A DNA stretch of 29,278 nucleotides from a virus (lineage: Duplodnaviria > Heunggongvirae > Uroviricota > Caudoviricetes). The translations under genes and the position numbers were made by a program. The stretch's first letter is position 1. Each line of letters starts with the position of its first letter. This document shows positions 6,919 through 25,164 of this stretch, one piece after another. The stretch is from the IMG/VR virus record IMGVR_UViG_2778261180_000001, one strand, 5' to 3'. The notes below the pieces were generated by a model that was not told where the DNA came from, did not search any database, and saw only the letters and a list, made by a program, of their open reading frames with translations.

Positions 6919-8877
6919 TTACGCCGTACATTTCACCAGACCGCGGTGATCAACTGGCGCGACACCGGCGTCAATACGCACTTTCGTTGTCACGCCATCC
7001 ACACTGAAGCCCTCCATCTGATCAATATATGGCGTATCCACACCGTTGAGATAAGCCACTTCAATCGTATCGGAGCCTTTTGACGCAGCCAGGTAGAAGG
7101 TGGTCTGGCTGTTATCATCAAGACGAGGCTCTGCAATAACGGTCGCAAAATCTTTCACCGGGTTAATAATACCGGCGTTAATGTCAGCCCCCTTGACACT
7201 TGAGGAGCGAATGACCTGGTTAGCAACAGACTCCATCGCCGTCGGTACCAGTACGAACGCAGGACGAATATTCAGATGACGCTCCCCCTCTTTCTGAACG
7301 CGCATCAACTGGCGGGCTTTATCCAGCGATGCCACGTCCATTGCAGCGCTCTCCAGTACGTTTGCATGTTTCGCTTTATCGAACAGACTTACATTATCTG
7401 TGGAGATTTTCGGGTTAGACGTCAGAATGGCATAAACCAGATCGGCAATAGTGGATTTCGCCGCACGGCCCAGTTTCATCGGGACATCGGTCAGCATATT
7501 CAGATCATCATTGATAATGGCCTGACGGGTGATACTGAACAGCTCGCCATAGGTCGCCAGTGCAATAGTGGCCTGTTTATCTCCGGTGGTGACGTATTTA
7601 TATTCCGCCCCTTCACGCACCTGACGCAGAGCACTGAAGCCCCCCATACCCACACGATGGGCAATTTTAAAATCAGACAACTGACCTTTCCGCGTCCACT
7701 GTTCATAGGTTTCAGGAGCATCTTCCCAGCCCTGCAGAATGGCTTTGTTCGCAACATCCAGCAGAATATTACCGAAGTCAGACGTACTGTGTGTGAACGC
7801 CGCACCGACCATCTGCATCGGGTTATAACTGGAAACCCCAATACCCCGTTCAGTCAGTGACATACGGGCATATTCACGCAGGGTCATCCCGTTGTAGACA
7901 TTATCACGTTCGGTTTTTTCAAATCCGGCACGCGCCATCAGCGCCTGGCGGATCCCGTCCCCCACAAAATTACCGTTACCGGCATAAATATGAGCCGGTG
8001 TATTTTTATTGGATGGCGTGGACTCGCGCCCCATCTCGTTCAACAGCTTTTCGCGGGCCTGCTCCAGCGAACATTCAGGATCGGCAAGACACTGAGCCTG
8101 CAGCGTCTGATAACGCCCGCCAAACATGGCAAACAGATCATTAATACCGTTTACACGCGCTTTTTGCTCTGCCAGTACCTGCGCACGGATACTGTTTTCA
8201 TCCACCACGGGTGCTGCTGCCTGCACTGGCGTCCGGGAGGCTGCAGGTTCATCATCCTGTACGCGTGGAGCACTGTTGCGTGGCGGAGTAATCATGTTTC
8301 GAATGGATTCCGGCATCTTTTTAAATTCCTCTGTACGTTTTGACTGAATACATGCCATTGCCTTAACGGCTGGCGTCACCTGATCAGCAAATCCATGTGC
8401 CAGACATTCGGCACCGGACATCCAGGTCTCATCCGCCAGCATGGCAGCAATTTCATCGGTGGTTTTCCCGGTTTTCTGTGCATAAGCGGGTAACAGAACC
8501 GCCTCAACCTTATCGAGCAGGTCGGCATAGGTGCGCATGTCCTCCGCATCACCGCCCGTAAAGCCAAATGGTTTATGAATCATCATGAAGGTGTTTTCCG
8601 GCATAATGACCGGGTTTCCCACCATCGCAATGACCGACGCCATTGACGCCGCCACACCGTCGACATAAACGGTAATGGACGCACCATGTGTTTTCAGTGC
8701 ATTAAAAATGGCGATGCCTTCAAAGACATCGCCACCCGGTGAATTGATATGGAGATTAATGTGGGTGATATCGCCCAGTGCATTCAGATCACTGATAAAC
8801 TGCTTCGCTGTAACACCCCAGAAACCAATCTCGTCATAAATATAAATATCCGCGTCACTCTGGTGACCAGCCTGCAT
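6919..8877 (-). CDS. Prohead protease - scaffold - major capsid fusion protein (ClpP-like protease domain, coiled-coil linker, HK97-fold capsid domain)
   Basis: N-terminal part has ClpP-type motifs (HINSPGGDVFEG, GVAASMASVIAMVG). The middle is a predicted coiled coil. The C-terminal roughly 400 aa look like an HK97-type major capsid protein. Start inferred at ATG 8877, overlapping the portal stop; the ORF-track start at 9138 lies inside the portal gene. Confidence 0.75.
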   Translation of the reverse strand: MQAGHQSDADIYIYDEIGFWGVTAKQFISDLNALGDITHINLHINSPGGDVFEGIAIFNALKTHGASITVYVDGVAASMASVIAMVGNPVIMPENTFMMIHKPFGFTGGDAEDMRTYADLLDKVEAVLLPAYAQKTGKTTDEIAAMLADETWMSGAECLAHGFADQVTPAVKAMACIQSKRTEEFKKMPESIRNMITPPRNSAPRVQDDEPAASRTPVQAAAPVVDENSIRAQVLAEQKARVNGINDLFAMFGGRYQTLQAQCLADPECSLEQAREKLLNEMGRESTPSNKNTPAHIYAGNGNFVGDGIRQALMARAGFEKTERDNVYNGMTLREYARMSLTERGIGVSSYNPMQMVGAAFTHSTSDFGNILLDVANKAILQGWEDAPETYEQWTRKGQLSDFKIAHRVGMGGFSALRQVREGAEYKYVTTGDKQATIALATYGELFSITRQAIINDDLNMLTDVPMKLGRAAKSTIADLVYAILTSNPKISTDNVSLFDKAKHANVLESAAMDVASLDKARQLMRVQKEGERHLNIRPAFVLVPTAMESVANQVIRSSSVKGADINAGIINPVKDFATVIAEPRLDDNSQTTFYLAASKGSDTIEVAYLNGVDTPYIDQMEGFSVDGVTTKVRIDAGVAPVDHRGLVKCTA

Positions 8878-8890
8878 CCTGAACCAGGAA

Positions 8891-10399
8891 TTATTCTTCG
8901 GACTGGTCGTCGGTGTGCTGCGGCTCCTGTCGTTTCGTTGCGGCACTGCTGCCTCCTTTATCACTGGCCGGATCGGTATCAAATACCAGATCCAGCGTGC
9001 GGTTTTCATCAATTTCGGCCTTGCGCCGACGTTTGACATCATCCGGATTACGACCACCTGCACGTACCCAGTCTGATTCTGTCGCTGCTCCACCACGAAT
9101 CTGAATTTTCCAGGCCTCAGCCTCCTTAACAGGGTCAATCCACGGCATCACCGGTCCGGAATACACCGCGGTATACAGTGAAGAACGGTCAAGATCGCGG
9201 GGTAGCCTGATAACACCGGATGCCACAGCCTGTTTCAGCCAGGCACGATACATCGGGCGGGTGACGGCACCAATAAACCAGTCCTGCAGGATCAGGTAGC
9301 CATCAGTGGATTCAACCAGCTCCTGACGCTGGGCGCTGTAAGTGCCGTTATAGTTGCGTGCCGTACTGGAAAAACTCAGACGACTGCCCGCCGCCACGGC
9401 ACGCAACTGACCATTACGAAAAGTTTCAAGGTTAGGATTGGGACGATCCGACTTCACCATTCCGATTTCTTCGCCGGGTTTCAGATCGTCGTAAATAATG
9501 CCTGGCTGAATGGTAAGCTCGCGTTCCTTATCCTTGCTGCCATTACCATCCGGTTCATAGCTCTGCCCGTCGCCTTTCCGGATGTACATCCCCAGAGCAG
9601 CGGCGATCCTTGCTGCAGTCAGCTCAGAATCTTCATACTCTTTCAGGGCACTGAGGCGGATCAGCACACCGGACAACAAAGACGTCCCGCGCATCTGGTG
9701 CAGACGGCGAACAAATTTAAGATGCAGCATTCGCTCTGCATCCACTTCTTTGGTTTCCATCTGCCGTCCGGATACGGGACGACTTTTATACACCAGATAT
9801 TTTTCGGGACGCCCCCAGTCATCAACAAACACGCCCTGATTCAGCCTGTTGCTCTCATCACTGGTCATGGGAATAAAGTCCGGCTCGAGTGCCTCCAGCC
9901 AGAAATGAACACCGGCAGAAGGCGTCAGGCTGTTTATGCGCCCGGAAACCATCTGGACAAACACCTCACCATCGCGCAGCCAGGTACGCAGCATCAGACG
10001 TTCCAGCATCGGACGGGTAAACTGCCCGGTGACTTCCGGGCTGACAGACCATTCACTCCATCGGGTGCGAATCTCCGCAGCCAGGTCACGGGCAATGGCC
10101 CCATTGCGTAATACCGGATGTGGCTCGACAATAATCCCGTTTTTCCCCACCACCCGTTCTTCCAGCTTGTCAAATACACCAATGACCAGATCGTGGTTGT
10201 TATCAAGGTAACGGGCCTGCTCACGTAACGACACGGCCCCGTACTGGCTTAACTGGTCGGCAGTTCGGTTTTCCCGCCGGGCTTTGTGTGTCCGCGTCGT
10301 TTTTACGGCCTCATAAGCCTGGATCACCGCACGGGAACGCAGCCTTGCCGCTTTCCATCCTGGTGAAAAAACGCCAATCACATCATCAAGAATTGCCAT
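8891..10399 (-). CDS. Portal protein (lambda gpB-like)
   Basis: About 502 aa, placed between the terminase large subunit / W and the protease. Start inferred at ATG 10399 (MAILDDVIGVF...), which overlaps the W stop as TGATG. Confidence 0.85.
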   Translation of the reverse strand: MAILDDVIGVFSPGWKAARLRSRAVIQAYEAVKTTRTHKARRENRTADQLSQYGAVSLREQARYLDNNHDLVIGVFDKLEERVVGKNGIIVEPHPVLRNGAIARDLAAEIRTRWSEWSVSPEVTGQFTRPMLERLMLRTWLRDGEVFVQMVSGRINSLTPSAGVHFWLEALEPDFIPMTSDESNRLNQGVFVDDWGRPEKYLVYKSRPVSGRQMETKEVDAERMLHLKFVRRLHQMRGTSLLSGVLIRLSALKEYEDSELTAARIAAALGMYIRKGDGQSYEPDGNGSKDKERELTIQPGIIYDDLKPGEEIGMVKSDRPNPNLETFRNGQLRAVAAGSRLSFSSTARNYNGTYSAQRQELVESTDGYLILQDWFIGAVTRPMYRAWLKQAVASGVIRLPRDLDRSSLYTAVYSGPVMPWIDPVKEAEAWKIQIRGGAATESDWVRAGGRNPDDVKRRRKAEIDENRTLDLVFDTDPASDKGGSSAATKRQEPQHTDDQSEE

Positions 10400-10617
10400 C
10401 AGAACCTCGCCAGCCGGTACCCGGGATGCCCCCGTCGTCGTGTAATCAGAGCCGCAAGGCGGCGCTCCCACTCCTGCCGCCCCTGCCGGATCTCAGATAA
10501 GTTTTCCATGGTCATCTGCTGACCATTAAAGGTGACGGATTTTCCGTCCAGCACCGCCATTTCAGCTTCCGTATAACGCTGAATCATGGCTTCGATATCA
10601 TTCTGGTTCATAACCAT
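10399..10617 (-). CDS. Head-tail joining protein W-like
   Basis: 72 aa with C-terminus ...RRLAALITRRRGHPGYRLARF resembling lambda W (...MTQRRRGPAGFYV). Lies between the terminase large subunit and the portal as in lambda. Confidence 0.7.
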   Translation of the reverse strand: MVMNQNDIEAMIQRYTEAEMAVLDGKSVTFNGQQMTMENLSEIRQGRQEWERRLAALITRRRGHPGYRLARF

Positions 10618-12710
10618 CCTCCGGAAGTCAGCCAGGGGTTAACATCGTCAGTTACTGTTTTCTTCCGTTTTTGTTTTTTAACAGGCGTGGATACCGGTTC
10701 CGGTGTGGGTGACGGTTCGGTACTGTCCGGGACACACTCCAGCCAGGTTTCCCGGCTCGCCCACTCCGGTGCATCCGGCCAGCGGATCTTTTCGTATCCA
10801 TGCAGAATGACCAGAGCCTCGGCATACACCATCAGGTCAAAAGCTTCGTTGGCACCGCGACCTGGCTTACTCCATTTCCCGTCACTGCTCCGCTCTTCAT
10901 ACGTCAGTTCGTCGTAAAACCAACTCCCCAGCCAGTCAGGGAAATGCACATAGCCGGGACCTGGCGAGTCACGCCATAACGCGTTATTCACCCGGTCTTT
11001 CAGTGCATCCGTCTGAAGAAGCCAGAGCGGCACATCACCTGCGGCCTGCGCCCGTCGGCCCGTTCGTCCGGTGTTATCAGGGAATGTACGGGTGATCAGT
11101 TTTGCGCGCCGGATGCTGTCGCCCTTAAACAGGTAAATACGTTTACCAAGGCCATCACGACGGCAACGACGCCAGAATTTATAGGCATTATCAGTGACCC
11201 CGTCTTCACCGCCGGAGTCCACCGCCATTGCCATCAGTCGCATTTGTTGAGAAGGATCGGAGGCCAGCGGCCAGCTTTTATGAAAAACATCCGTCAGCAG
11301 GACATCCCAGTCTTCCGGATAGCTGGCCGGATCAATTCGCTGGCTCTCCCCGTCGCTGTCACCGCGCAATGACTGCGTGATGTTGTAACGATCAATAATC
11401 CAGCGTTCGCCACGGCTGCCATAGCCCGTTACCTGAACCACAAAACGGCGATGACGTCCCGCCTGCACATCCACTGTCGCCACAAGGAAATTAACGCCAT
11501 CCGGCACACTGCGGGAAGGAACTGGCTCTGCCCGCTGCTCAAGCAGTTCACTTTTTCGTTGCTCCATGCTGGCGCGGGGAAGATAAGGTAATCCCCAGTC
11601 GGTATTGATAACCGTCTTGAGTGTTTCTTCACTTCCGGTTGTCTCGTATTCCTGTTCTGCAGTAAGCAGTTTGTAAACGAGTTGCGAGAGTGTCTGGTAA
11701 GCAGCTGCCGGACCCTCCATCCAGAATGACGCAATACGTGAGCGTCGGGGATCACCATAACGACTGCCATCCGCATTGATGGATTCACCATCCCGCAACC
11801 AGACCCCACGTCCGTTCAGCTCACGTTTTTGTTCAGGCATAATCCGTCCTGAACAGGAAGGACACTGAATATAAGCCGCCTCACTTGCCAGCACGGGATC
11901 GGCAATATCACGGAAACCAGCAACCACATCGCCGCAGGGCTGAAAATACTCACCACAGTGTGGACAAGGCCAGTACCAGCGACGGCGATCGCCACGGTTA
12001 TAGAGCGACAGTATCCCCGTGGTTGGTGGAGCCTCATGCGGTGAAGTCCGTCGCCATTTCACATCCTTCACATCCCTGCCGGGGGAACTCTCCACAAGCG
12101 TCATACCACTGGACATAAATGTTGTGGTACGTTTTGAGGCAAGAGAGAAAGCATCCCCCTCGCCATCAATATCTTCCGGAAAACGGTCATAATCCGTCAG
12201 CGCGACGCATTTATAATCTGATGAGGACATGATATTGACTGACGGCCAGCCGATTTTCAGGTAGTTACCAGCAAGGAATGTTCTGTCATAAACGTTGTTG
12301 TCATTTTTGTTCGGACTCAGGCGACTGACCACTTCCGGGCTGACGCGAAACGTTCTGGCGAGTCGTTTTTTGGAGTGTTCGCGGGCTTTTTCCTCCGTCA
12401 TCTGTATGATCAGCATATCAGCAGGATCGCAAATCACGTTGTAAATCACCCAGCCGTCAATCAGGCCGATAGTCTTGCCGGTTCGTGCCGGGCCAACAAA
12501 TATCACTGCGTCGTATTCACGCGAGGCCAGGCAGTTCATCGGCTCAATAACATACGGTGCCACCAGCGGATCCCACGGGACTGAGTTCCCTGCCCCCATG
12601 GGCACCCGCATATACTGAGCAACGGCATCAGCAACCCGCATTCGTCTCGGTGCGCGAAGGATATAACCTGAATCGGTTCGTGCTGCCTTTGCGGTTTCCT
12701 GATTCAGCAT
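10608..12710 (-). CDS. Terminase large subunit (lambda gpA-like)
   Basis: 700 aa with a Walker A-like FVGPARTGKT and a Cys cluster (CPHCGEYF...CPSCSG). The ATG at 12710 has a GGGAGGAG Shine-Dalgarno and overlaps the small-subunit stop as TAATG. Confidence 0.9.
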   Translation of the reverse strand: MLNQETAKAARTDSGYILRAPRRMRVADAVAQYMRVPMGAGNSVPWDPLVAPYVIEPMNCLASREYDAVIFVGPARTGKTIGLIDGWVIYNVICDPADMLIIQMTEEKAREHSKKRLARTFRVSPEVVSRLSPNKNDNNVYDRTFLAGNYLKIGWPSVNIMSSSDYKCVALTDYDRFPEDIDGEGDAFSLASKRTTTFMSSGMTLVESSPGRDVKDVKWRRTSPHEAPPTTGILSLYNRGDRRRWYWPCPHCGEYFQPCGDVVAGFRDIADPVLASEAAYIQCPSCSGRIMPEQKRELNGRGVWLRDGESINADGSRYGDPRRSRIASFWMEGPAAAYQTLSQLVYKLLTAEQEYETTGSEETLKTVINTDWGLPYLPRASMEQRKSELLEQRAEPVPSRSVPDGVNFLVATVDVQAGRHRRFVVQVTGYGSRGERWIIDRYNITQSLRGDSDGESQRIDPASYPEDWDVLLTDVFHKSWPLASDPSQQMRLMAMAVDSGGEDGVTDNAYKFWRRCRRDGLGKRIYLFKGDSIRRAKLITRTFPDNTGRTGRRAQAAGDVPLWLLQTDALKDRVNNALWRDSPGPGYVHFPDWLGSWFYDELTYEERSSDGKWSKPGRGANEAFDLMVYAEALVILHGYEKIRWPDAPEWASRETWLECVPDSTEPSPTPEPVSTPVKKQKRKKTVTDDVNPWLTSGGWL

Positions 12711-13204
12711 TACTCCTCCCGCTGTAATTCCTCCTCATCATCCGCACCTGCTTCGGTCACCCGCAGGGCTATCTGATCGCGCAGATCATCAATAATGGAC
12801 TGAACACGGCTCACAGCGGCAGGCTGCAGACCGCAGTCACGTTCAAGAATATCCGGTAATGTCTCCAGCACCTGCACGACCGCTTTTGCCCAGATGGCAA
12901 ACTCCCGTCTGACATCACTGGCCGGAATGAGTTGTGCCGTTTCCTGTTCGAACTTAAGACGCTCACGTTCAGACTGATACCAGGCTTTGCGCTCATGCGC
13001 GTCCATTTCGCCTTCTGCAACCGGCGGTGGTAATGCCAGAAATGCCGACACAATATCAACCACCCGATAAAGCTTGAGGTTGCTTTCATGCCCCCCTGCA
13101 ACGGGTAGATTTTGCAGCCTTGCCGCAGCAGTCTGGCGATGTACACCTGACAGAGCCGCCAGTTGACTGATATTCAGCGTCAGATTTTTTAACTCTCGAT
13201 CCAT
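12710..13204 (-). CDS. Terminase small subunit (Nu1-like)
   Basis: 164 aa with an N-terminal HTH-like segment (LTLNISQLAALSGVHRQTAAARL). First gene downstream of the cos-like site and directly upstream of the large subunit. Confidence 0.7.
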   Translation of the reverse strand: MDRELKNLTLNISQLAALSGVHRQTAAARLQNLPVAGGHESNLKLYRVVDIVSAFLALPPPVAEGEMDAHERKAWYQSERERLKFEQETAQLIPASDVRREFAIWAKAVVQVLETLPDILERDCGLQPAAVSRVQSIIDDLRDQIALRVTEAGADDEEELQREE

Positions 13205-13368
13205 ACCCGCTCCAGAATGTTTTAAACATGCATCTTGCGAACAACTTTAGGCAAACGGTGTTAGTGATGAACAAAAAACAATCAAAATCGACACCACAAA
13301 AATAAAACCACTGTAATATCAATACATTACAGTAGTGGTGATGACGAATGAAATTTCAAAAACTAGCC

Positions 13369-13380
13369 TTTTTCCGCGAC
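13369..13380 (-). other. Putative cos cohesive-end site (cosN core), lambda-like
   Basis: Minus-strand sequence GGGTCCTCCCGGCAGTGTGTCCTGCCACG GGGCGGGAGCGT CGCGGAAAAAGGCTAGTTTTTGAAA aligns by eye with the lambda right-end / cos junction (..GGGTCCTTTCCGG..ACG GGGCGGCGACCT CGCGGGTTTTCGCTATTTATGAAAA). Lies about 170 bp upstream of the Nu1-like start. Confidence 0.55.
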
Positions 13381-13775
13381 GCTCCCGCCCCGTGGCAGGA
13401 CACACTGCCGGGAGGACCCATTAAAAACTGCTAAGCTGGGCTCGTTATGGCAACAATTCCATACGAAGTTTTATAAGTAAGAAGTTGCATGCCATCAGGC
13501 ACCACCGCTGCTGATTACGACCATCAATGTGAACCACAACCAGCGCATCGGGTTACAGATAATTCATATGCTCAACGAGCATAAAGTTCAGAACGTTTAA
13601 CTTCAGGTGCTTTGTTTTAGCCATACCGTCCGTAACAACATGATGGAAGCGGGTACTTAGAGAACACTATGGATAGAAACTTGCATTACTAATCTCACAA
13701 TTTATTCATACAGTTATATGATAAATATATTATTAGTTATAACATGTTGAAAATTCATAAAGGAGAATTACCTGT

Positions 13776-14468
13776 ATGTCTAGAGAAGGCTCGTTGGACT
13801 TATTGCAAGAAGTTGAAGAAAGTCTTGACATAATGAGACAGACACAGCATATCAAGCCTGTAAAAGTCAAAGCTATTTTGGAAAACTTACGAAGTTCCTT
13901 AGAGTATCTCGCTAATGATACCTATGATAAATATATTTCTCCACGCAGTAATGATGAGCGCCCCAAAATATATTTCCCTTACGGAAAAAAAGAGTTTATT
14001 GATAAATTTTTCTCAAAGACGCTAAAAATAAACCCACCATCATCTTCTCCATTATATAAAATTTTTACTTCTATACAGGATTATCACACTGGCGAATCTT
14101 GGTTGGAAATGATGTGTAATCTCACTAATGAAGTAAAGCACAGACAACCAATCCCCTTAAGAGAAGAGAGTTCTGTTAAAGACCTAAGTGTGAGCGTAGA
14201 TGGTTTTGGTTTAATCACAGCAGGAAGCTCAGCAAAAATTCTCTTTAAAAACAACCACATCAATGGCAAAAAATTAGAAGACTTTACTTTCGAAAATGGG
14301 AAATTACAAAGAAGTGGTAATGGTGTACCTTTAAACATAGTCATTACCGAAGAGAAAAAAATAAGATTCCATGGGAATGACCATGAAGTAATTCCTTTCA
14401 TTGAATCATGCCTTATTAAAATCAGAATTTTTATTATCGAAGCCTATAATGAGTTAGATAAGATTTGA
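13776..14468 (+). CDS. Hypothetical 230-aa protein in an AT-rich moron, antisense to the late operon (candidate lysogen-expressed cargo, possibly defence or exclusion)
   Basis: ATG at 13776 preceded by AAAGGAGA. The gene and its flanks (about 13560-14640) are markedly more AT-rich than the phage backbone. I recognise no family. The position between Rz and cos is the slot occupied by bor in lambda. Confidence 0.6.
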   Translation: MSREGSLDLLQEVEESLDIMRQTQHIKPVKVKAILENLRSSLEYLANDTYDKYISPRSNDERPKIYFPYGKKEFIDKFFSKTLKINPPSSSPLYKIFTSIQDYHTGESWLEMMCNLTNEVKHRQPIPLREESSVKDLSVSVDGFGLITAGSSAKILFKNNHINGKKLEDFTFENGKLQRSGNGVPLNIVITEEKKIRFHGNDHEVIPFIESCLIKIRIFIIEAYNELDKI

Positions 14469-14521
14469 ATCACCCCCTAAACACCACAGCAAGTGGGAAT
14501 TAACCACCCTATATTAAATAT

Positions 14522-14559
14522 CCCTTTGTGAATGTGTTAAAGCTTATCGTCACAAAGGG
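14522..14559. terminator. Inverted repeat hairpin between the moron gene and Rz
   Basis: Seen directly: CCCTTTGTGA ... TCACAAAGGG, a 10-bp stem with an 18-nt loop, lying between two convergent genes. No strong U-tract, so terminator function is uncertain. Confidence 0.3.
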
Positions 14560-14636
14560 ATGCCCATTATTAATCTCACTAGGCAATGAATTTCTAATAT
14601 TAAATTTCATCGCCAGATTTTAAATTTCCTGCAACC

Positions 14637-15173
14637 TTACTGGCCATGCTCAGATGGTCTGTAACGCAACTCATCAATTTCACGAATACTCGAAAAATTA
14701 TTATTTCCTTTTTCTATCAACGCCAGTAGCGGCTTAATCCACAAGACAGCTTGGCAGTAGGTCATTGAGCTGGTGGTAGCGGTACGATCATAGGCTTCAT
14801 TAGGTCTGCCGGTATCGGTGTGCATGGCGCTGGCACGTAAACGGTACGTGTATTCGAGCAACCCACCAGCGATATCAGCAGGAACAGGCAGATCACAGGT
14901 TTTTTCACGGCGGAGAATCTCCCGGTATTCGATTACGGTTTTTTCGGTGCTGGTGTCGATCAGGGAGTTAAGACTGTTGGCATGTTCTGCAACCTGATTG
15001 AATCGATTGAAGTTGAATGCCTGGGTGGCGATTACCTGCCCCAGCATAGAGTTGTCACTTCGCAGAACGTCGTTATCGCTCTGAAGATTACTGGCGTGAG
15101 AGCAACTCTTGACGAGAGCGACCGAAAGGCCAGCAATAACGACAACGCCTATAAGATCCGGATTAATTTTCAT
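14637..15173 (-). CDS. Rz i-spanin
   Basis: Start inferred at the internal ATG (MKINPDLIGVVVIAGLSVALV...), which has an N-terminal transmembrane segment and overlaps the endolysin gene end. The rest is coiled-coil like. It is the last gene of the lysis cassette. Confidence 0.7.
   Translation of the reverse strand: MKINPDLIGVVVIAGLSVALVKSCSHASNLQSDNDVLRSDNSMLGQVIATQAFNFNRFNQVAEHANSLNSLIDTSTEKTVIEYREILRREKTCDLPVPADIAGGLLEYTYRLRASAMHTDTGRPNEAYDRTATTSSMTYCQAVLWIKPLLALIEKGNNNFSSIREIDELRYRPSEHGQ
14762..14908 (-). CDS. Rz1 o-spanin lipoprotein, embedded in the +1 frame of Rz
   Basis: My own translation of the +1 frame inside Rz gives (GTG)MKKPVICLFLLISLVGCSNTRTVYVPAPCTPIPADLMKPMIVPLPPAQ: a signal peptide, an LVGC lipobox and a Pro-rich body. 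GGGAGA lies 9 nt upstream of the GTG. Confidence 0.5.
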   Translation of the reverse strand: MKKPVICLFLLISLVGCSNTRTVYVPAPCTPIPADLMKPMIVPLPPAQ

Positions 15174-15712
15174 TGCTCCAGCCCCCAGCACGCCAGTGCG
15201 CTTTCCTGATCGCGCCGCTCGACCTGCCCATAACAGCCATTCTTCTGCCCTTTTGTCAGGCGGCAATCACGCCCACCATCTTTTATCCACCAGCGAATCG
15301 CCTCGCATGCCCCCTTACGATCATCGGCATTCAGCCGCTTATAAAACGTCGACGGGAAACACTTACCGGGGCCAATGTTATAGGGACAAAATGACGCTAT
15401 ACCCGCTTTCTGTGGTTCGGTCAGTGGCACTTTAATATTGCGCTCCACCCATGCCAGCGCCTTATCCCGTTCAATGGCGTTAACCTGGTCGCATTTTTCC
15501 TTCGACAGTTTCATACCGGGAAAAACGGGTTTTCCATCCACCACCGTGGCACCCCGACAGATGGTCCAGATGCCGGAACCATCGCGGTATGCCGTTGTGT
15601 GGTTACCTTCTTTTTCATTCAGAAACTGGTCGAGAATATCAGGCGCAGGCGCACCGACGGCAATCAGTGCCAGAACGGCAGCCGACAGGCCGTATCTGAT
15701 TTTTACGTTCAT
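15170..15712 (-). CDS. Endolysin, T4-lysozyme-like (GH24) with an N-terminal SAR-type hydrophobic segment
   Basis: The catalytic triad spacing E-x8-D-x5-T is present in LNEKEGNHTTAYRDGSGIWTICRG. The N-terminus GLSAAVLALIAVGAPAP is Gly/Ala-rich like a signal-anchor-release domain. Paired with an S21-type pinholin. Confidence 0.85.
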   Translation of the reverse strand: MNVKIRYGLSAAVLALIAVGAPAPDILDQFLNEKEGNHTTAYRDGSGIWTICRGATVVDGKPVFPGMKLSKEKCDQVNAIERDKALAWVERNIKVPLTEPQKAGIASFCPYNIGPGKCFPSTFYKRLNADDRKGACEAIRWWIKDGGRDCRLTKGQKNGCYGQVERRDQESALACWGLEQ

Positions 15713-16404: not shown

Positions 16405-16620
16405 TTACTCTCCCCGTGCAGCCTTACGCTTGTCTTCTTTAATCTTGAAATAAAGGTTTGTCAGGTACGTCAGCAGGCCAAATACCAGGCTACCCAGCAC
16501 ACCTATTGCTGCCCACTGTGAGGGCGTGACTTTATCGAGCAGCTGTAAAAACCAGTAGCCAGCACTGCCTGCGGAGGTGCCGTAGGCAATGCCTGTTGAA
16601 ATTTTGTCCATGGATTTCAT
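16405..16620 (-). CDS. Pinholin, phage 21 S21-like, with a dual-start motif (antiholin from Met1, holin from Met4)
   Basis: [71 protein letters not shown] is near-identical to phage 21 S21 as I remember it. The MKSM dual start corresponds to the S21-71 / S21-68 pair. Confidence 0.85.
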
Positions 16621-16871: not shown

Positions 16872-17267
16872 CTAACCTCGCATGTCAAAGCCAGATTTCT
16901 GAAAATCTCTGTAGACTTCCGGATTGTTGAAGGCCGGAAATTTGGCTTTATGAGCTGCGGACTTTATCGCTTCGCAATAGGCTTTATCACCGTTACTGGT
17001 AGATATTTTTAACGCCGTGCCATCCTGAGAGAATTCCATATGCAACCTGCATTTTTTCCCTTTCCAGTTATGCGGCTCATCAAGTTTGGCATTAATTGCA
17101 GCTCTGATTCCCCGCGCTTGCGCCCCCCATTCATCCTGATCATCCCAGCGTCCTGAACTGCAACTACCTGTAGCAGTAGTTTTGTGGCAATCTGAAGGGT
17201 GTAAAGGTGTGCATCCCGCAACAAAACTGACCCAAAAAGTCAACATAACGATTTTCTTTAATCCCAC
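16872..17267 (-). CDS. Lipoprotein with a TolA C-terminal (TolA-III)-like domain
   Basis: GTG start with a GAGGAG Shine-Dalgarno; signal peptide and lipobox (MGLKKIVMLTFWVSFVAGC). The C-terminal part (KKCRLHMEFSQDGTALKISTSNGDKAYCEAIKSAAHKAKFPAFNNPEVYRDFQKSGFDM) resembles the E. coli TolA C-terminus as I recall it, and is paralogous to the next gene. Confidence 0.7.
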   Translation of the reverse strand: MGLKKIVMLTFWVSFVAGCTPLHPSDCHKTTATGSCSSGRWDDQDEWGAQARGIRAAINAKLDEPHNWKGKKCRLHMEFSQDGTALKISTSNGDKAYCEAIKSAAHKAKFPAFNNPEVYRDFQKSGFDMRG

Positions 17268-17417: not shown

Positions 17418-17846
17418 TCAGGGTTTAAAATCCAGCACCCCATTTTGAAATACTTTATATACTTCCGGCGAAGGGGGGGCAGGTATATCAGCATTCTTTA
17501 TCGCATTCATCGCTTCACGACATAAATCGAGGTCTCCACTTTCTCTTTTAACCTCCAGTAGAAGGCCATTCGGGGCCATATGCATTCTCAGTGTACACTC
17601 TTTTCCTGAATACTTACTCGCATCCCCGAACTGTTTTTCGATGGCGCTCTTGATTTGATGGGCATACAGACGGATATCCTCACTAACATCAGAAGTACGT
17701 TCAGATGAACTCACATACTGTGTCTCTATTGCTTTATCGGAGTAATATGATGTACGGTCATGATAATTTGTCGATACAGCATCAGTGCACCCGATAATAA
17801 TCCCACTAATAATCAACGTAAGAATTGATGCGCTACGAAAACCCAT
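17418..17846 (-). CDS. Lipoprotein with a TolA C-terminal (TolA-III)-like domain, paralog of the previous gene
   Basis: ATG with a GAGGA Shine-Dalgarno; lipobox IIGC. C-terminus YAHQIKSAIEKQFGDASKYSGKECTLRMHMAPNGLLLEVKRESGDLDLCREAMNAIKNADIPAPPSPEVYKVFQNGVLDFKP closely resembles the TolA-III segment ...AGQIKSAIESKFYDASSYAGKTCTLRIKLAPDGMLLDIKPEGGDPALCQAALAAAKLAKIPKPPSQAVYEVFKNAPLDFKP (recalled). Confidence 0.7.
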   Translation of the reverse strand: MGFRSASILTLIISGIIIGCTDAVSTNYHDRTSYYSDKAIETQYVSSSERTSDVSEDIRLYAHQIKSAIEKQFGDASKYSGKECTLRMHMAPNGLLLEVKRESGDLDLCREAMNAIKNADIPAPPSPEVYKVFQNGVLDFKP

Positions 17847-18843: not shown

Positions 18844-18920
18844 TGGCGCGCTGTACTGGATTCGAACCAGTGACCGATTGCTTAGAAGGCAATTGCTCTG
18901 TCCGGCTGAGCTAACAACGC
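18844..18920 (-). tRNA. tRNA-Arg (anticodon UCU)
   Basis: Manual fold of the reverse complement GCGTTGTTAGCTCAGCCGGACAGAGCAATTGCCTTCTAAGCAATCGGTCACTGGTTCGAATCCAGTACAGCGCGCCA gives a 7-bp acceptor stem, D-stem GCTC/GAGC, anticodon loop CTTCTAA, T-loop TTCGAAT and a CCA end. Confidence 0.8.
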
Positions 18921-19025
18921 TGAATACCGATAATGGACCGCCATCGGGGACCCGCCCCCCCCCCGCACCAACAACCCTGTTATCGTGTCGTCTGCTCTTC
19001 CTGATAAGCTCATGGCGGTTTGTGA

Positions 19026-19101
19026 TGGTGGCCCTTGCTGGATTTGAACCAGCGACCTGGCGATTATGAGTCGCTCGCTCTCACCACTGAGCTAAAGGAC
19101 C
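19026..19101 (-). tRNA. tRNA with CAU anticodon, most likely tRNA-Ile2 (lysidine) of the ileX/ileZ type; tRNA-Met not excluded
   Basis: Reverse complement GGTCCTTTAGCTCAGTGGTGAGAGCGAGCGACTCATAATCGCCAGGTCGCTGGTTCAAATCCAGCAAGGGCCACCA folds as a cloverleaf with anticodon loop CTCATAA. It is very similar to E. coli ileX as I recall it. Confidence 0.8.
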
Positions 19102-19136
19102 GGGAGCAGAATAATAACGGTCCGTAATTAATTCCG

Positions 19137-22469: not shown

Positions 22470-23540
22470 AGCCTGCTTCTCCTTGCCTTTCGGCACGTAA
22501 GAGGCTAACCTACATGTGTCTAGCATGAAATTGGCCTCAGATTAATGTTAAGCGTCTTGCAGGACGCGTAATGTTAACTGGGGCTTTTCTCTATCTGCCG
22601 TTGGTGTTCATGCCCGAGGCAGATAGCCTCAAGCACCCGCAGCCATTCTACTTAACTACCGTTACCTCGCCAATGTGAAATCAGTCAGAAAGGCGATCCA
22701 TAAGAACAATAGCAAGACAATAAATCGCCATTACAGCCGTAATAGCCAGCGCACATTTGAGAACCAGCACCACAACCTCCTGTATTGGACGTACACCAGT
22801 CCTGATGAATATGAGGCTGTCTCGTCAGTGATTCAATACAACTATTGGGTATAGTTTCTCTGATTTTTTCTGTGGAAATGGGGCTCAACCACTAGTCATT
22901 TAATACGCAAAGTCCGACACAAGCTAACCTTCTAGTCCGCTTTGAGCGATGAGCGGACATCGACTTTAAAAAACACTAGCGTAAACAGGAAGGCAGTTAT
23001 GATCCAGAATGAATACTCACTACCTCTTTGACTAAAATGATGATAAGTGCTCATTTGATGATAATTAACATGTTTTTTAATAATTAAAGCTAACATAATA
23101 ATTTAACGAATATTCTTTGCTTTCTGAATAATAAACCTAGAGCAAACTAAATGACATCACCAGGACTTAACACCATAGGGTTGGTTTCGAATATTCTTGG
23201 CGTGATATTAATTTTTCTTTTGATTACCACAATCCTCTCATAATGAGGGAGTGTCACTGGCATTGGAAGATAATACGCAATTGAATGATGGAACTACTGT
23301 CAAATAAAAGAACTTAAAAACAAAAAAAGAAGTATATTTACAATATCTTTCGTATACTTAGCGTTAGCATTAATGTTCACGGATTCGTATTGCAATTCTT
23401 ATCAATTCTACCTGACTTGCAAATTTAATTGACTCGTAACATCTGCAACCCCACATTTAACAAAAAGCAGATAGAATAATTGAAGGATATAGTCTAGCTA
23501 AGTTAAATGTGGGTGCGTTTTATTTTACATCAATATATTT

Positions 23541-24563
23541 TTAATTTACAAAACCGAAATCCAGACACTTTTTATAGCTGTTAGGGTGAAGATCTTTAAG
23601 GTCTTTTAAAAAACCTTTATCAAGTGTTAAAATCAAAGTGTCTGGCATATTTAGAGAAATAACTATTAGAAAGTCAAATATGTCATTTTTTCGTAATTTA
23701 CGACCATTTTTATATGCATCCTCAACCTTGCTCATTAGAAAGCTCAACGAATTCTTAGTAAGCCCACGAGCGCCAGAAATCCCCTCCTCCATTTCTTTCA
23801 GGTAGTTATCAACTACTGATTCGTGTTTTTTTTTGCAGGCAAGGGATATTGGATTCTCCATATATTTTTTAAACTTTTTATCAAAATTATCATTTTTTAT
23901 ACTATCATACAGATTTTTGAGTCTGTCTTGGCTTCCGGAAATGTTAACTGTGTCAGTTTTAATCATATGATAGTTGACATGAAAAGCATGTAGGAGTCCG
24001 ATAAGCATGGTTTCAAAAGCTTTCAAAGCTGATTGCTGCTCATTTCCATTAATATATCCATTCCGCAACTCATCTTTAAAGAAGTCTAAAATTAATTCCA
24101 TATTAGATTCAAGTAGAGTCTGCACAAGACTAAGTTGACTTTGATTTTGTACATCGTTATCAAACTTGTATCCATCTTCTCTAATAACCTCAAACAAACC
24201 AGAGACAACCAGTATGAGTATGAACCTATAAAACTCAGCCTCTCTAGATATTTTTAGTGCTCTAACATTATCAATAATATCTTTTACTTCGTCTATTTTG
24301 TCTGAAAAATGCAACCTATAAAGAAATTCATTTGAGATTGGAGTATGACCAATGCTAATTAGTTCAATATTTCCGTTTATGATTGGGCTAATGCATTTTT
24401 TTACAGCCCCTAAGTCATTGCAATATTTAGAGATCACTTCTATGAGTGATGGTGTCGTAATGGATAATTTGAATTGATCTATAGGGGAGTTAATTATTTT
24501 TTGGTTTGTCGACAGACCAACTAGTGAGTAAAGAATATTTGTATCAATTATCATCCTGCTCAT
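23541..24563 (-). CDS. Hypothetical 340-aa protein in an AT-rich island; the N-terminus is faintly PIN-like (candidate novel defence or exclusion gene)
   Basis: ATG at 24563 with an AAGGAG Shine-Dalgarno; begins MSRMIIDTNILYSLVG. The whole 22.9-24.7 kb block is much more AT-rich than its flanks. No confident family assignment. Confidence 0.6.
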   Translation of the reverse strand: MSRMIIDTNILYSLVGLSTNQKIINSPIDQFKLSITTPSLIEVISKYCNDLGAVKKCISPIINGNIELISIGHTPISNEFLYRLHFSDKIDEVKDIIDNVRALKISREAEFYRFILILVVSGLFEVIREDGYKFDNDVQNQSQLSLVQTLLESNMELILDFFKDELRNGYINGNEQQSALKAFETMLIGLLHAFHVNYHMIKTDTVNISGSQDRLKNLYDSIKNDNFDKKFKKYMENPISLACKKKHESVVDNYLKEMEEGISGARGLTKNSLSFLMSKVEDAYKNGRKLRKNDIFDFLIVISLNMPDTLILTLDKGFLKDLKDLHPNSYKKCLDFGFVN

Positions 24564-24762
24564 ATAAATGCTCCTTTTTGAACGGTTGATTATTGTTATA
24601 TCACATATCAATGCGCATTAGCATAGTGATTGTATTGTAACGTCCGCTTCTGGCACAAAGCGGACAACCACGCCAGATCTACCCTGTGCCATGAAAAATG
24701 AGAATGTCAATTCACTCCTGAACTAATGCTTTTTAATCTAGTAACGTCTAAAATACCTAACA

Positions 24763-25164
24763 TTATCCCTGATAAAATGCCAGTATGCGCTGCATAACTT
24801 CACTCATCCGGCACTCGCGACAGATTATGTTTAGGCGACTGTCGTAGCGACGTATTTCTCCATCAGGTAACGACCAGATAAGGTCCGGATCAACCACAGC
24901 TGTTTTCTTCACCTTTGCCCTCGATAGTTTTTTGCGGGCGTTTTGCCAGTCCTTACGCGCCTGTTCAGACGGGAATAACCCGTAGCCGGAGTTGTATACA
25001 TCGCCACTGGCTACCAGCTCTCTGGCAAGAACGCTCATCAGATATCTAGTCGCACCTGTTTTAGCTTCCAGTTGCCGTAACGTCTCACGACCGCTCTGGC
25101 GCACGAGTTCCACCACCTGCCCTTTAATTTTTTCCCGCTCTTCTTGTGTAAAAACTTTTGCCAC
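24763..25164 (-). CDS. Hypothetical 133-aa protein
   Basis: GTG start with AGGGGGA upstream. Lies between the replication gene and the AT-rich island. No family recognised. Confidence 0.4.
   Translation of the reverse strand: MAKVFTQEEREKIKGQVVELVRQSGRETLRQLEAKTGATRYLMSVLARELVASGDVYNSGYGLFPSEQARKDWQNARKKLSRAKVKKTAVVDPDLIWSLPDGEIRRYDSRLNIICRECRMSEVMQRILAFYQG

What the first reader, a model, noticed from the sequence alone, without database searches (positions are those of the whole stretch)
13560..14640. AT-rich moron between Rz and cos carrying a 230-aa orphan gene antisense to the late operon
A plus-strand gene (13776-14468) with a strong Shine-Dalgarno sits in a low-GC block at the extreme end of the late region, in the slot lambda uses for bor. 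Its orientation implies expression from its own promoter, likely in the lysogen. A hairpin (14522-14559) separates it from Rz. I recognise no family for the product. Morons at this site commonly encode lysogenic-conversion, exclusion or defence functions.
Basis: partly seen in the sequence, partly recalled or inferred. Interest (0 to 1): 0.65.

Follow-up and report, generated by a model that had tools for sequence, protein, structure and literature searches.

The report
HEPN-like solo gene at prophage end
A real, conserved 230-residue gene sits backwards between the lysis genes and the DNA-packaging site of an E. coli lambda-like prophage; it belongs to a large unstudied protein family whose predicted fold resembles HEPN RNA-cutting toxins, so it is a plausible but untested single-gene anti-phage defence.

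Summary
A 230-aa ORF (13776-14468, +) with an AAGGAG ribosome site lies in a 34% GC block between cos (about 13390-13395) and Rz/Rz1 (14637-15173, -), antisense to the late operon, and is followed by a 12-bp-stem hairpin (14520-14561).

It is not an orphan. It matches PHROG 13652 (function unknown) and has 74 homologue clusters. A profile search finds 1053 representatives across many phyla. None matches Pfam, NCBIfam, PADLOC or any PDB sequence.

Enterobacterial homologues (46-100% identity) always occupy the same slot, between the spanin and the packaging genes. They are always antisense, and they sit next to at least four or five unrelated terminase types. A 32% homologue sits in the cos-adjacent gpQ-gpA defence hotspot of a P2-like prophage. 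No partner gene is conserved.

Best reading (about 0.4): a lysogen-expressed, solo HEPN-like abortive-infection RNase, analogous to HepS. Expression, RNase activity and defence are all untested.

The parts
13776..14468 (+). 230-aa gene (WP_023567552.1, annotated hypothetical), with a HEPN-like helical core and a variable beta insert
14124..14141 (+). Codons 117-122 (T-N-E-V-K-H): the HEPN-position motif. H122 is invariant, N118 and K121 exceed 93%, and the arginine position is T/N/V/S
   Evidence: 146 members; the motif lies at the end of helix 109-119; HEPN topology from PMC3710099
13760..13765 (+). Shine-Dalgarno AAGGAG, 10 nt before the ATG
13735..13744 (+). Conserved TAGnTATAAn element (TATAAC at 13738-13743), the best candidate -10 of the gene's own promoter
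   Evidence: Conserved in 7 loci of 63-100% protein identity while neighbouring bases vary. No good -35 was found. Function is inferred only.
13687..13775 (.). 89-bp divergent intergenic region between the glycosyltransferase remnant and the focal gene
   Evidence: DNA shared with Enterobacter locus L038 starts at 13650
13419..13686 (-). Frameshifted 5' remnant of a 485-aa phage glycosyltransferase moron (phrog_1579)
   Evidence: tblastn HSPs at 13627-13520 and 13511-13419 in different frames. PHROG assignment of the intact Enterobacter gene. The intact gene lies next to the focal gene in about 10 IMG/VR contigs.
14520..14561 (.). Inverted repeat (12-bp stem, 18-nt loop) between the gene and Rz; a possible bidirectional terminator
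   Evidence: not called as an intrinsic terminator; not conserved in other loci
13420..14636 (.). AT-rich accessory block (GC 0.351) between the cos flank and the Rz stop codon
   Evidence: Homology to relatives with an empty slot ends at 13419 and resumes at 15170; composition
13350..13419 (.). cos region; the ends of related phage genomes map at about 13390-13395
   Evidence: hits H6, H13-H15
14637..15173 (-). Rz-like i-spanin with embedded Rz1 o-spanin (14762-14908), the last genes of the late lysis cassette
12710..13204 (-). Small terminase subunit (DUF1441, phrog_141), the first packaging gene

Best explanation
The gene is an autonomous accessory cassette (a moron) parked at the right end of a lambdoid prophage genome, between Rz/Rz1 and cos.

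Shown here: it is a real gene under purifying selection. It moves between unrelated lambdoid prophages but always lands in the slot between the lysis cassette and the packaging genes, and always antisense. It needs no conserved partner gene. It belongs to a large, uncharacterised, cross-phylum family.

Inferred from the predicted structure: the protein is a divergent HEPN-type four-helix bundle. Its conserved site is built from helix 2 (K32, R39, acidic 43, Y44, D48), the FPYG loop, Q101 and an N118-x-x-K121-H122 motif at the end of helix 3. A variable beta domain of 60-106 residues is inserted directly after the catalytic-position histidine.

Inferred by analogy with HepS, Tha, AbiV and AbiD/F: the protein is made in the lysogen from its own promoter and is held inactive. 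A component of a superinfecting phage, probably sensed through the variable beta insert, switches it on. It then cleaves tRNA or mRNA and aborts the infection.

A further inference: after induction, Q-antiterminated late transcription runs head-on through the gene. That would silence it and spare the prophage's own lytic cycle.
For: The gene is real and conserved.

Moron character. The GC is low. Related prophages show presence/absence polymorphism and carry other contents in the same slot. 126 bp of upstream DNA is co-inherited with the gene.

Slot fidelity. All 8 sampled loci from Enterobacter, Citrobacter, Raoultella, Superficieibacter and E. coli place it there. So do most of the 31 enterobacterial IMG/VR contigs: both flanks were recognised in about 24, only one in 6, and 1 was ambiguous, with none clearly elsewhere. 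The gene is always antisense. The neighbouring packaging genes are DUF1441/GpA-like, Nu1/GpA, HNH+Terminase_4, Terminase_3 or another type.

A 32% homologue lies between P2-type gpQ and gpA. That is the cos-adjacent defence hotspot described in PMC9122126.

No neighbour is conserved across 30 loci. Some neighbours are defence genes: AriAB, MzaA, DRT UG29, mads and methyltransferases.

Topology matches the HEPN description in PMC3710099. The motif sits at the end of helix 3, a polar N occupies the position after the R site, helix 2 carries acidic residues, and there is an insert between helices 2 and 3. Conservation is concentrated in helix 2 and helix 3, while the beta insert is the most variable region.

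Precedent: HepS is a solo prophage HEPN abortive-infection protein with no partner, inactive by default (PMC13043305).
Against: The canonical arginine of Rx4-6H is absent in all 146 members checked.

No sequence or profile link to any HEPN family was found. Pfam was negative for all 146 members. PDB profile searches were negative. hhalign against the RnlA HEPN domain was negative.

No PADLOC model matches any family member.

The promoter evidence is weak. Expression, RNase activity and phage resistance are all untested.

Many distant homologues sit among housekeeping genes.
Confidence: 0.4

Rival explanations
1. The protein has a HEPN-like fold but is not an RNase. It would be a nucleotide- or RNA-binding sensor or regulator, or an enzyme with a different chemistry. 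It could still act in defence, or in prophage-host regulation.
For: The catalytic arginine is missing in the whole family. PMC3710099 notes HEPN families that lost the motif and probably act without catalysis, such as MtlR and NT-fused HEPN. No toxicity-neutralising partner is present.
Against: H122 is invariant. K121, N118 and R39 are nearly invariant, which looks like a catalytic constellation. The Parep1/8 HEPNs also lack R but keep H, with other basic residues proposed to compensate.
Confidence: 0.2
2. The gene serves the phage's own lytic or establishment programme, for example as a counter-defence or host-takeover factor, rather than protecting the lysogen.
For: It is phage-borne and sits next to late genes. 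Many unknown phage accessory genes are anti-defence genes. It has no PADLOC match.
Against: It is antisense to the late operon, so it cannot be part of the late transcript. It is absent from all 50,697 isolated phage records and is found only in prophages, chromosomes and plasmids. It occurs widely in non-phage chromosomal contexts in Bacteroidota, Deinococcales, Planctomycetota and an archaeon.
Confidence: 0.12
3. The gene is a selfish toxin or addiction element, with an unannotated RNA or small-peptide antitoxin. It would stabilise the prophage rather than sense phages.
Against: No conserved adjacent ORF was found. There are no tandem repeats of the ToxI type and no Rfam match. The downstream hairpin is not conserved: in Citrobacter loci the gene ends 5 bp from the spanin gene.
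Confidence: 0.1
4. It is a Bor-like lysogenic-conversion or virulence factor acting at the cell surface (serum resistance or receptor masking).
For: It occupies the same slot and orientation as lambda bor (textbook knowledge). The host strain is an avian pathogenic E. coli.
Against: The N-terminus is acidic and hydrophilic, with no signal peptide or lipobox. GRAVY is -0.46. The only hydrophobic stretch (KD 1.66, centred on residue 214) falls in the stretch modelled as the C-terminal helix 205-229. There is no Bor Pfam hit. The family spans environmental phyla.
Confidence: 0.04

Closest known systems
HepS (STM14_3211) of Salmonella prophage Gifsy-1: a solo HEPN abortive-infection anticodon nuclease (PMC13043305; PDB 9OIJ, 9OIK)
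HEPN superfamily RNase toxins: HepT of MNT-HEPN systems (4nqf, 8xdj, 7ae2, 5yep), HI0074, RnlA/LsoA
   Different: There is no MNT or RnlB-type antitoxin neighbour. The R of Rx4-6H is absent. There is no HMM or profile similarity. A beta domain is inserted between helices 3 and 4.
Parep1/8 clade of HEPN-T (R-less HEPN variants)
   Same: This is a precedent for a HEPN family that keeps the H but lacks the R. Other conserved basic residues are proposed to take over (PMC3710099). Here R39, K32 and K121 are candidates.
   Different: Parep1/8 is archaeal and belongs to MNT-associated operons. No sequence relationship was tested or seen.
Lambda bor and the Rz-cos accessory slot
   Same: The position (after Rz, before cos) and the orientation antisense to the late operon are the same. 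This is textbook knowledge of lambda; the positions in this window come.
   Different: Bor is a small outer-membrane lipoprotein. This product has no signal peptide or lipobox and looks cytoplasmic and enzyme-like.
The cos-adjacent defence hotspot of P2-like phages (old/tin locus between gpA and gpQ; PMC9122126)
   Same: A 32%-identical family member in Rouxiella silvae lies exactly between the P2-type portal gene and gpA. Both slots abut the packaging site.
   Different: The phage lineage is different. Whether this family was among the systems catalogued or tested in that study was not checked.
Tha, the tail-activated HEPN defence of S. aureus prophages (PMC11087260)
   Same: It is a prophage-encoded HEPN RNase. 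Antisense transcription is used there to balance immunity against autoimmunity.
   Different: Tha has a dedicated inhibitor (Ith) and lies in the lysogeny module. No inhibitor gene is seen here.

Membership tests
HEPN superfamily | [quoted passage not shown] | tested here: met
HEPN superfamily | Rx4-6H motif at the end of helix 3, with a polar residue after the R | tested here: not met
   The position and spacing fit (T117-N118-E-V-K121-H122 at the end of helix 109-119). H is invariant in 146 of 146 members and N is present in 136 of 146. The R position is T, N, V or S in the 138 tallied members and is never the common residue. R-less HEPN families exist, so this lowers the membership claim but does not exclude it.
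HEPN superfamily | Conserved acidic residue in helix 2 (often Ex3[KR]) | tested here: inconclusive
   Helix 2 carries E36 (127 of 146), D/E43 (146 of 146) and D48 (126 of 146), together with R39 and K32. No Ex3[KR] spacing is present.
HEPN superfamily | Detectable profile similarity to an established HEPN family | tested here: not met
   No Pfam HEPN model is hit by any of 146 members. PDB profile searches were negative. hhalign against the RnlA HEPN domain gave probability 0.1. HHpred against full libraries could not be run.
HEPN superfamily | Metal-independent RNase activity | not testable with these tools
   This needs biochemistry.
Phage moron (autonomous accessory transcription unit) | Present or absent between conserved genes in related phages, with atypical base composition | tested here: met
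Phage moron (autonomous accessory transcription unit) | Own promoter and terminator, expressed from the prophage | tested here: inconclusive
   The gene is antisense to the late operon. 126 bp of upstream DNA is co-inherited. A TAGnTATAAn element is conserved and a hairpin lies downstream. However, the sigma-70 scan is at chance level and no canonical terminator was called. No expression data are available.
HEPN-MNT / RnlAB type II toxin-antitoxin systems | Adjacent cognate antitoxin gene | tested here: not met
   No neighbour is conserved across 30 loci except within the closely related Neisseria loci.
Bor/Iss lipoprotein family | Signal peptide with lipobox; Bor Pfam domain | tested here: not met
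   No Pfam hit. The N-terminus is hydrophilic and acidic, and GRAVY is -0.46.
Known or candidate anti-phage systems (PADLOC-DB v2.0.0) | Match to a curated defence-protein HMM | tested here: not met
   No hit for the window protein. Only stray weak hits among the 146 family members.

The most novel reading that the evidence does not exclude
The gene founds a previously unrecognised, arginine-less branch of the HEPN superfamily. In this branch a hypervariable beta domain, inserted right after the catalytic histidine, acts as the phage sensor. The result is a one-protein abortive-infection system that has colonised the packaging-site-adjacent accessory slots of both lambdoid and P2-like prophages. 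It would be silenced during the prophage's own lytic cycle by head-on late transcription.
Probability: 0.35. Interest if true: 0.65.

Novelty: new variant of a known kind. Interest (0 to 1): 0.5.

Why it matters
If the reading is right, a family of more than a thousand sequence clusters, absent from Pfam, NCBIfam and PADLOC, gains a function. The catalogue of single-protein HEPN defences would gain a member with unusual active-site chemistry (no arginine) and a built-in variable sensor domain.

It would also define the lysis-to-packaging junction of lambdoid prophages as a predictable place to find defence genes, in parallel with the cos-adjacent hotspots of P2 and P4.

The gene is in about 2% of complete E. 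coli genomes, including APEC and ETEC strains, so it could affect phage-therapy host range. If the reading is wrong, this remains an ordinary moron of unknown function.

Tried and rejected
Direct family scans gave only PHROG 13652 (function unknown). Pfam, NCBIfam and PADLOC gave nothing.

Scanning all members of two family alignments against Pfam and PADLOC gave only stray weak hits.

PDB sequence and profile searches found only apolipoprotein noise.

Foldseek against the PDB was not significant. Foldseek against BFVD found one unnamed viral protein. The AFDB50 library was unavailable.

hhalign of the family profile against the RnlA HEPN domain was negative. A homologue search meant to deepen the RnlA profile returned only 3 sequences, so a proper profile-profile test was not possible.

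The search for a conserved partner gene found none. The Neisseria-specific overlap with a double ABC ATPase was judged to be lineage synteny.

The search for an RNA antitoxin or repeats found nothing. There was only a sub-threshold miRNA hit in Rfam and no tandem repeats.

The sigma-70 scan gave site numbers at chance level.

The literature look-up of the accession found nothing. WP_023567552 is not in the DefensePredictor supplements as held, though some of those files were cut when stored.

The gene is absent from all isolated phage records in the collection, by DNA and by protein search.

A Bor-like function was rejected because of the lack of a signal peptide.

Full report
**What is in the sequence**

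The window is a lambdoid prophage whose late operon runs on the minus strand. The order is: large terminase subunit 10608-12710, small terminase subunit (DUF1441, phrog_141) 12710-13204, then the region in question, then the Rz-like spanin 14637-15173 with embedded Rz1 at 14762-14908, endolysin 15170-15712, and the holin near 16405-16620.

The window is 100% identical over the finding to E. coli O78:H51 APEC E19025, where the focal ORF is WP_023567552.1, annotated as a hypothetical protein.

The ORF is 13776-14468 (+), 230 aa, with AAGGAG 10 nt upstream of the ATG. Its GC is 0.338 and its GC3 is 0.309, against about 0.54 for the terminase and lysozyme genes.

The physical ends of related phage genomes (cdtI, Tritos, mEp460_4F5) map to window 13390-13395. 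So cos lies about 380 nt to the left of the gene.

A perfect 12-bp inverted repeat (14520-14531 and 14550-14561, 18-nt loop) lies between the stop codon and Rz.

**Boundaries and history of the block**

Related E. coli prophages with the same terS-cos flank lose homology at window 13419 and regain it at 15170. In those relatives the slot holds either about 675 bp with only a 50-aa ORF, or a different pair of small genes. The slot is therefore variable.

Window 13419-13686 (minus strand) is a frameshifted remnant of the first 90 or so codons of a 485-aa phage glycosyltransferase (phrog_1579). That gene is intact and divergently oriented next to the homologue in Enterobacter and in about ten IMG/VR contigs.

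DNA similarity between the E. coli and Enterobacter blocks runs from 13650 to 14461. The gene therefore travels with its 89-bp divergent intergenic region.

Within that region a TAGnTATAAn element (13735-13744) is conserved in seven loci whose proteins are 63-100% identical. It is the best -10 candidate. The generic sigma-70 scan is no better than chance, so a private promoter is plausible but not shown.

**The gene is real and not an orphan**

dN/dS against the Enterobacter and Raoultella homologues is 0.06 and 0.15, with saturated dS.

The protein matches PHROG 13652 (function unknown) over its full length. It has 74 homologue clusters, all named hypothetical.

A profile search of 1.84 billion representatives finds 1053 proteins at E <= 1e-3. 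Nearly all of those listed are stand-alone proteins of 220-250 aa.

Homologues occur in Gammaproteobacteria, Neisseria, Bacteroidota, Deinococcales, Planctomycetota, Bacillus plasmids and a Nitrosotalea MAG.

The block is in 98 of 5426 complete E. coli genomes, always on the chromosome. It is in none of 50,697 isolated phage records.

**Slot survey**

Eight loci of enterobacterial homologues (46-70% identity) carry the gene between the last lysis gene and the first packaging gene, antisense to both. They come from Enterobacter, Citrobacter, Raoultella, Superficieibacter, E. coli and a metagenome.

The flanking modules differ between these loci. The endolysins are GH19 or lysozyme types. The terminases are HNH+Terminase_4+TerL, Nu1+GpA, Terminase_3, or an unclassified type with an adjacent integrase.

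Among 31 enterobacterial IMG/VR contigs with recognisable flanks, none clearly departs from that arrangement. Both flanks were recognised in about 24 contigs and only one flank in 6. One contig (L082) is ambiguous.

A 32%-identical member in Rouxiella silvae lies between a P2-type portal gene and gpA. That is the cos-adjacent defence hotspot described for P2-like phages (PMC9122126).

In 30 loci compared, no neighbouring gene is conserved except within the closely related Neisseria loci. Among 98 neighbours of distant homologues there are defence proteins (AriAB, MzaA, DRT UG29, mads, methyltransferases) and antitoxins, alongside phage and housekeeping genes.

**What the protein looks like**

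There is no match in Pfam, NCBIfam, PADLOC or PDB sequences, either for this protein or for 146 diverse relatives.

The AlphaFold model built with a 31-sequence alignment is confident (pLDDT 89, pTM 0.73). It has:
- helices at 3-23 and 28-53;
- a loop with the conserved YFPYG;
- short helices over 72-105;
- a helix at 109-119;
- a beta-rich segment at 128-198;
- a final helix at 205-229.

A 30%-identical member gives the same helical core at pLDDT above 90. In that model the distal part of the beta segment is poorly defined.

**Conserved residues**

Across 146 members, P68 and H122 are invariant. K32, R39, S40, L42, Y44, F67, F79, Q101, W109, N118 and K121 exceed 90%. Conservation is concentrated in helix 2 and in helix 3 plus its motif. 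The beta insert is the most variable part, at 3.06 bits mean entropy and 60-106 residues in length.

[quoted passage not shown] It also states that the residue after R is usually N, D or H, that helix 2 often carries a conserved acidic residue, and that inserts between helices 2 and 3 are typical (PMC3710099).

The segment T117-N118-E-V-K121-H122 fits that position and spacing. The arginine position, however, is T, N, V or S throughout the family. The same paper documents a HEPN clade (Parep1/8) that keeps H, lacks R and has other conserved basic residues. Here R39, K32 and K121 could play that part. This last point is inference.

**Most likely mechanism**

The protein has no signal peptide and looks soluble. 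It needs no partner. It sits in accessory slots of two unrelated temperate phage types, faces away from the late operon, and resembles HEPN toxins.

The closest functional precedent is HepS of Gifsy-1. HepS is a solo HEPN protein that is constitutively expressed, inactive by default, triggered by tail-tip proteins of infecting siphophages, and cleaves tRNA anticodon loops (PMC13043305).

I therefore favour a lysogen-expressed, trigger-activated RNase that aborts superinfection, with the variable beta insert as the sensor (confidence about 0.4).

The antisense placement suggests that Q-antiterminated late transcription silences the gene after induction. This is comparable in spirit to the antisense control described for Tha/Ith (PMC11087260). 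It is inference only.

**Rivals**

The alternatives are:
- a non-catalytic HEPN-like binder or a different enzyme activity (0.2);
- a factor serving the lytic cycle, or a counter-defence factor (0.12);
- an addiction toxin with a hidden antitoxin (0.1);
- a Bor-like surface factor (0.04).

Evidence for and against each is given in the rival-explanations section.

**Verdict**

This is a slot-specific prophage moron that encodes a member of a large uncharacterised family with a HEPN-like predicted fold and an arginine-less motif. It is a good candidate for a new variant of single-gene HEPN defence, but its function is untested.

Noticed in passing
window 13419-13686 (-): A frameshifted 5' remnant of a 485-aa phage glycosyltransferase (phrog_1579). 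The intact gene lies divergent from the focal gene in Enterobacter (L038) and in about 10 IMG/VR contigs, so the two morons often travel together. Here only the HEPN-like gene survived.
   Followed up: partly
window 13684-13698 and 14565-14579: A 15-nt direct repeat (CATTACTAATCTCAC / CATTATTAATCTCAC, 14 of 15 identical) brackets the promoter, ORF and hairpin. It may be chance in AT-rich DNA. The upstream copy overlaps the start and ribosome-binding region of the glycosyltransferase remnant.
   Followed up: partly
window 22800-24800; ORF 23541-24611 (-): A second AT-rich island (GC about 0.31). It carries a 341-356-aa ORF (WP_022645725.1, hypothetical) with no Pfam or PHROG match, between the replication-region genes and hokD. 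It is another candidate moron.
   Followed up: partly
window 16872-17267 (-) and 17418-17846 (-): Two small ORFs with TolA C-terminal domains lie between the Q/tRNA region and the holin. They may mimic TolA (exclusion of Tol-dependent phages or colicins?).
   Followed up: no
window 13307-13336 (-): A strong terminator-like hairpin (13-bp stem followed by a T-run) lies on the late-operon strand between cos and the small terminase gene.
   Followed up: no
NZ_CP138399.1 (hit H17), region matching window 13560-14640: In E. coli strain 64EVA the block is interrupted by an IS1 element: the match spans 1857 bp instead of 1081. Whether the ORF itself is disrupted was not checked.
   Followed up: no
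L002, L016, L018, L025 (Neisseria loci), about 8001-10264: In Neisseria the homologue overlaps by 4 nt a 515-aa protein with two ABC_tran/AAA_21 domains. This could be a lineage-specific operon partner or simple synteny.
   Followed up: partly
L050 3465-4469 (-): In an Enterobacter cloacae prophage a tyrosine-integrase gene sits between the focal gene and the packaging genes. That is an unusual place for an integrase and hints at a nested mobile element in this slot.
   Followed up: no
window 18844-19103 (from L001 21285-21544): tRNA-Arg and tRNA-Ile genes lie downstream of the Q antiterminator, as in many Stx-like lambdoid prophages.
   Followed up: no
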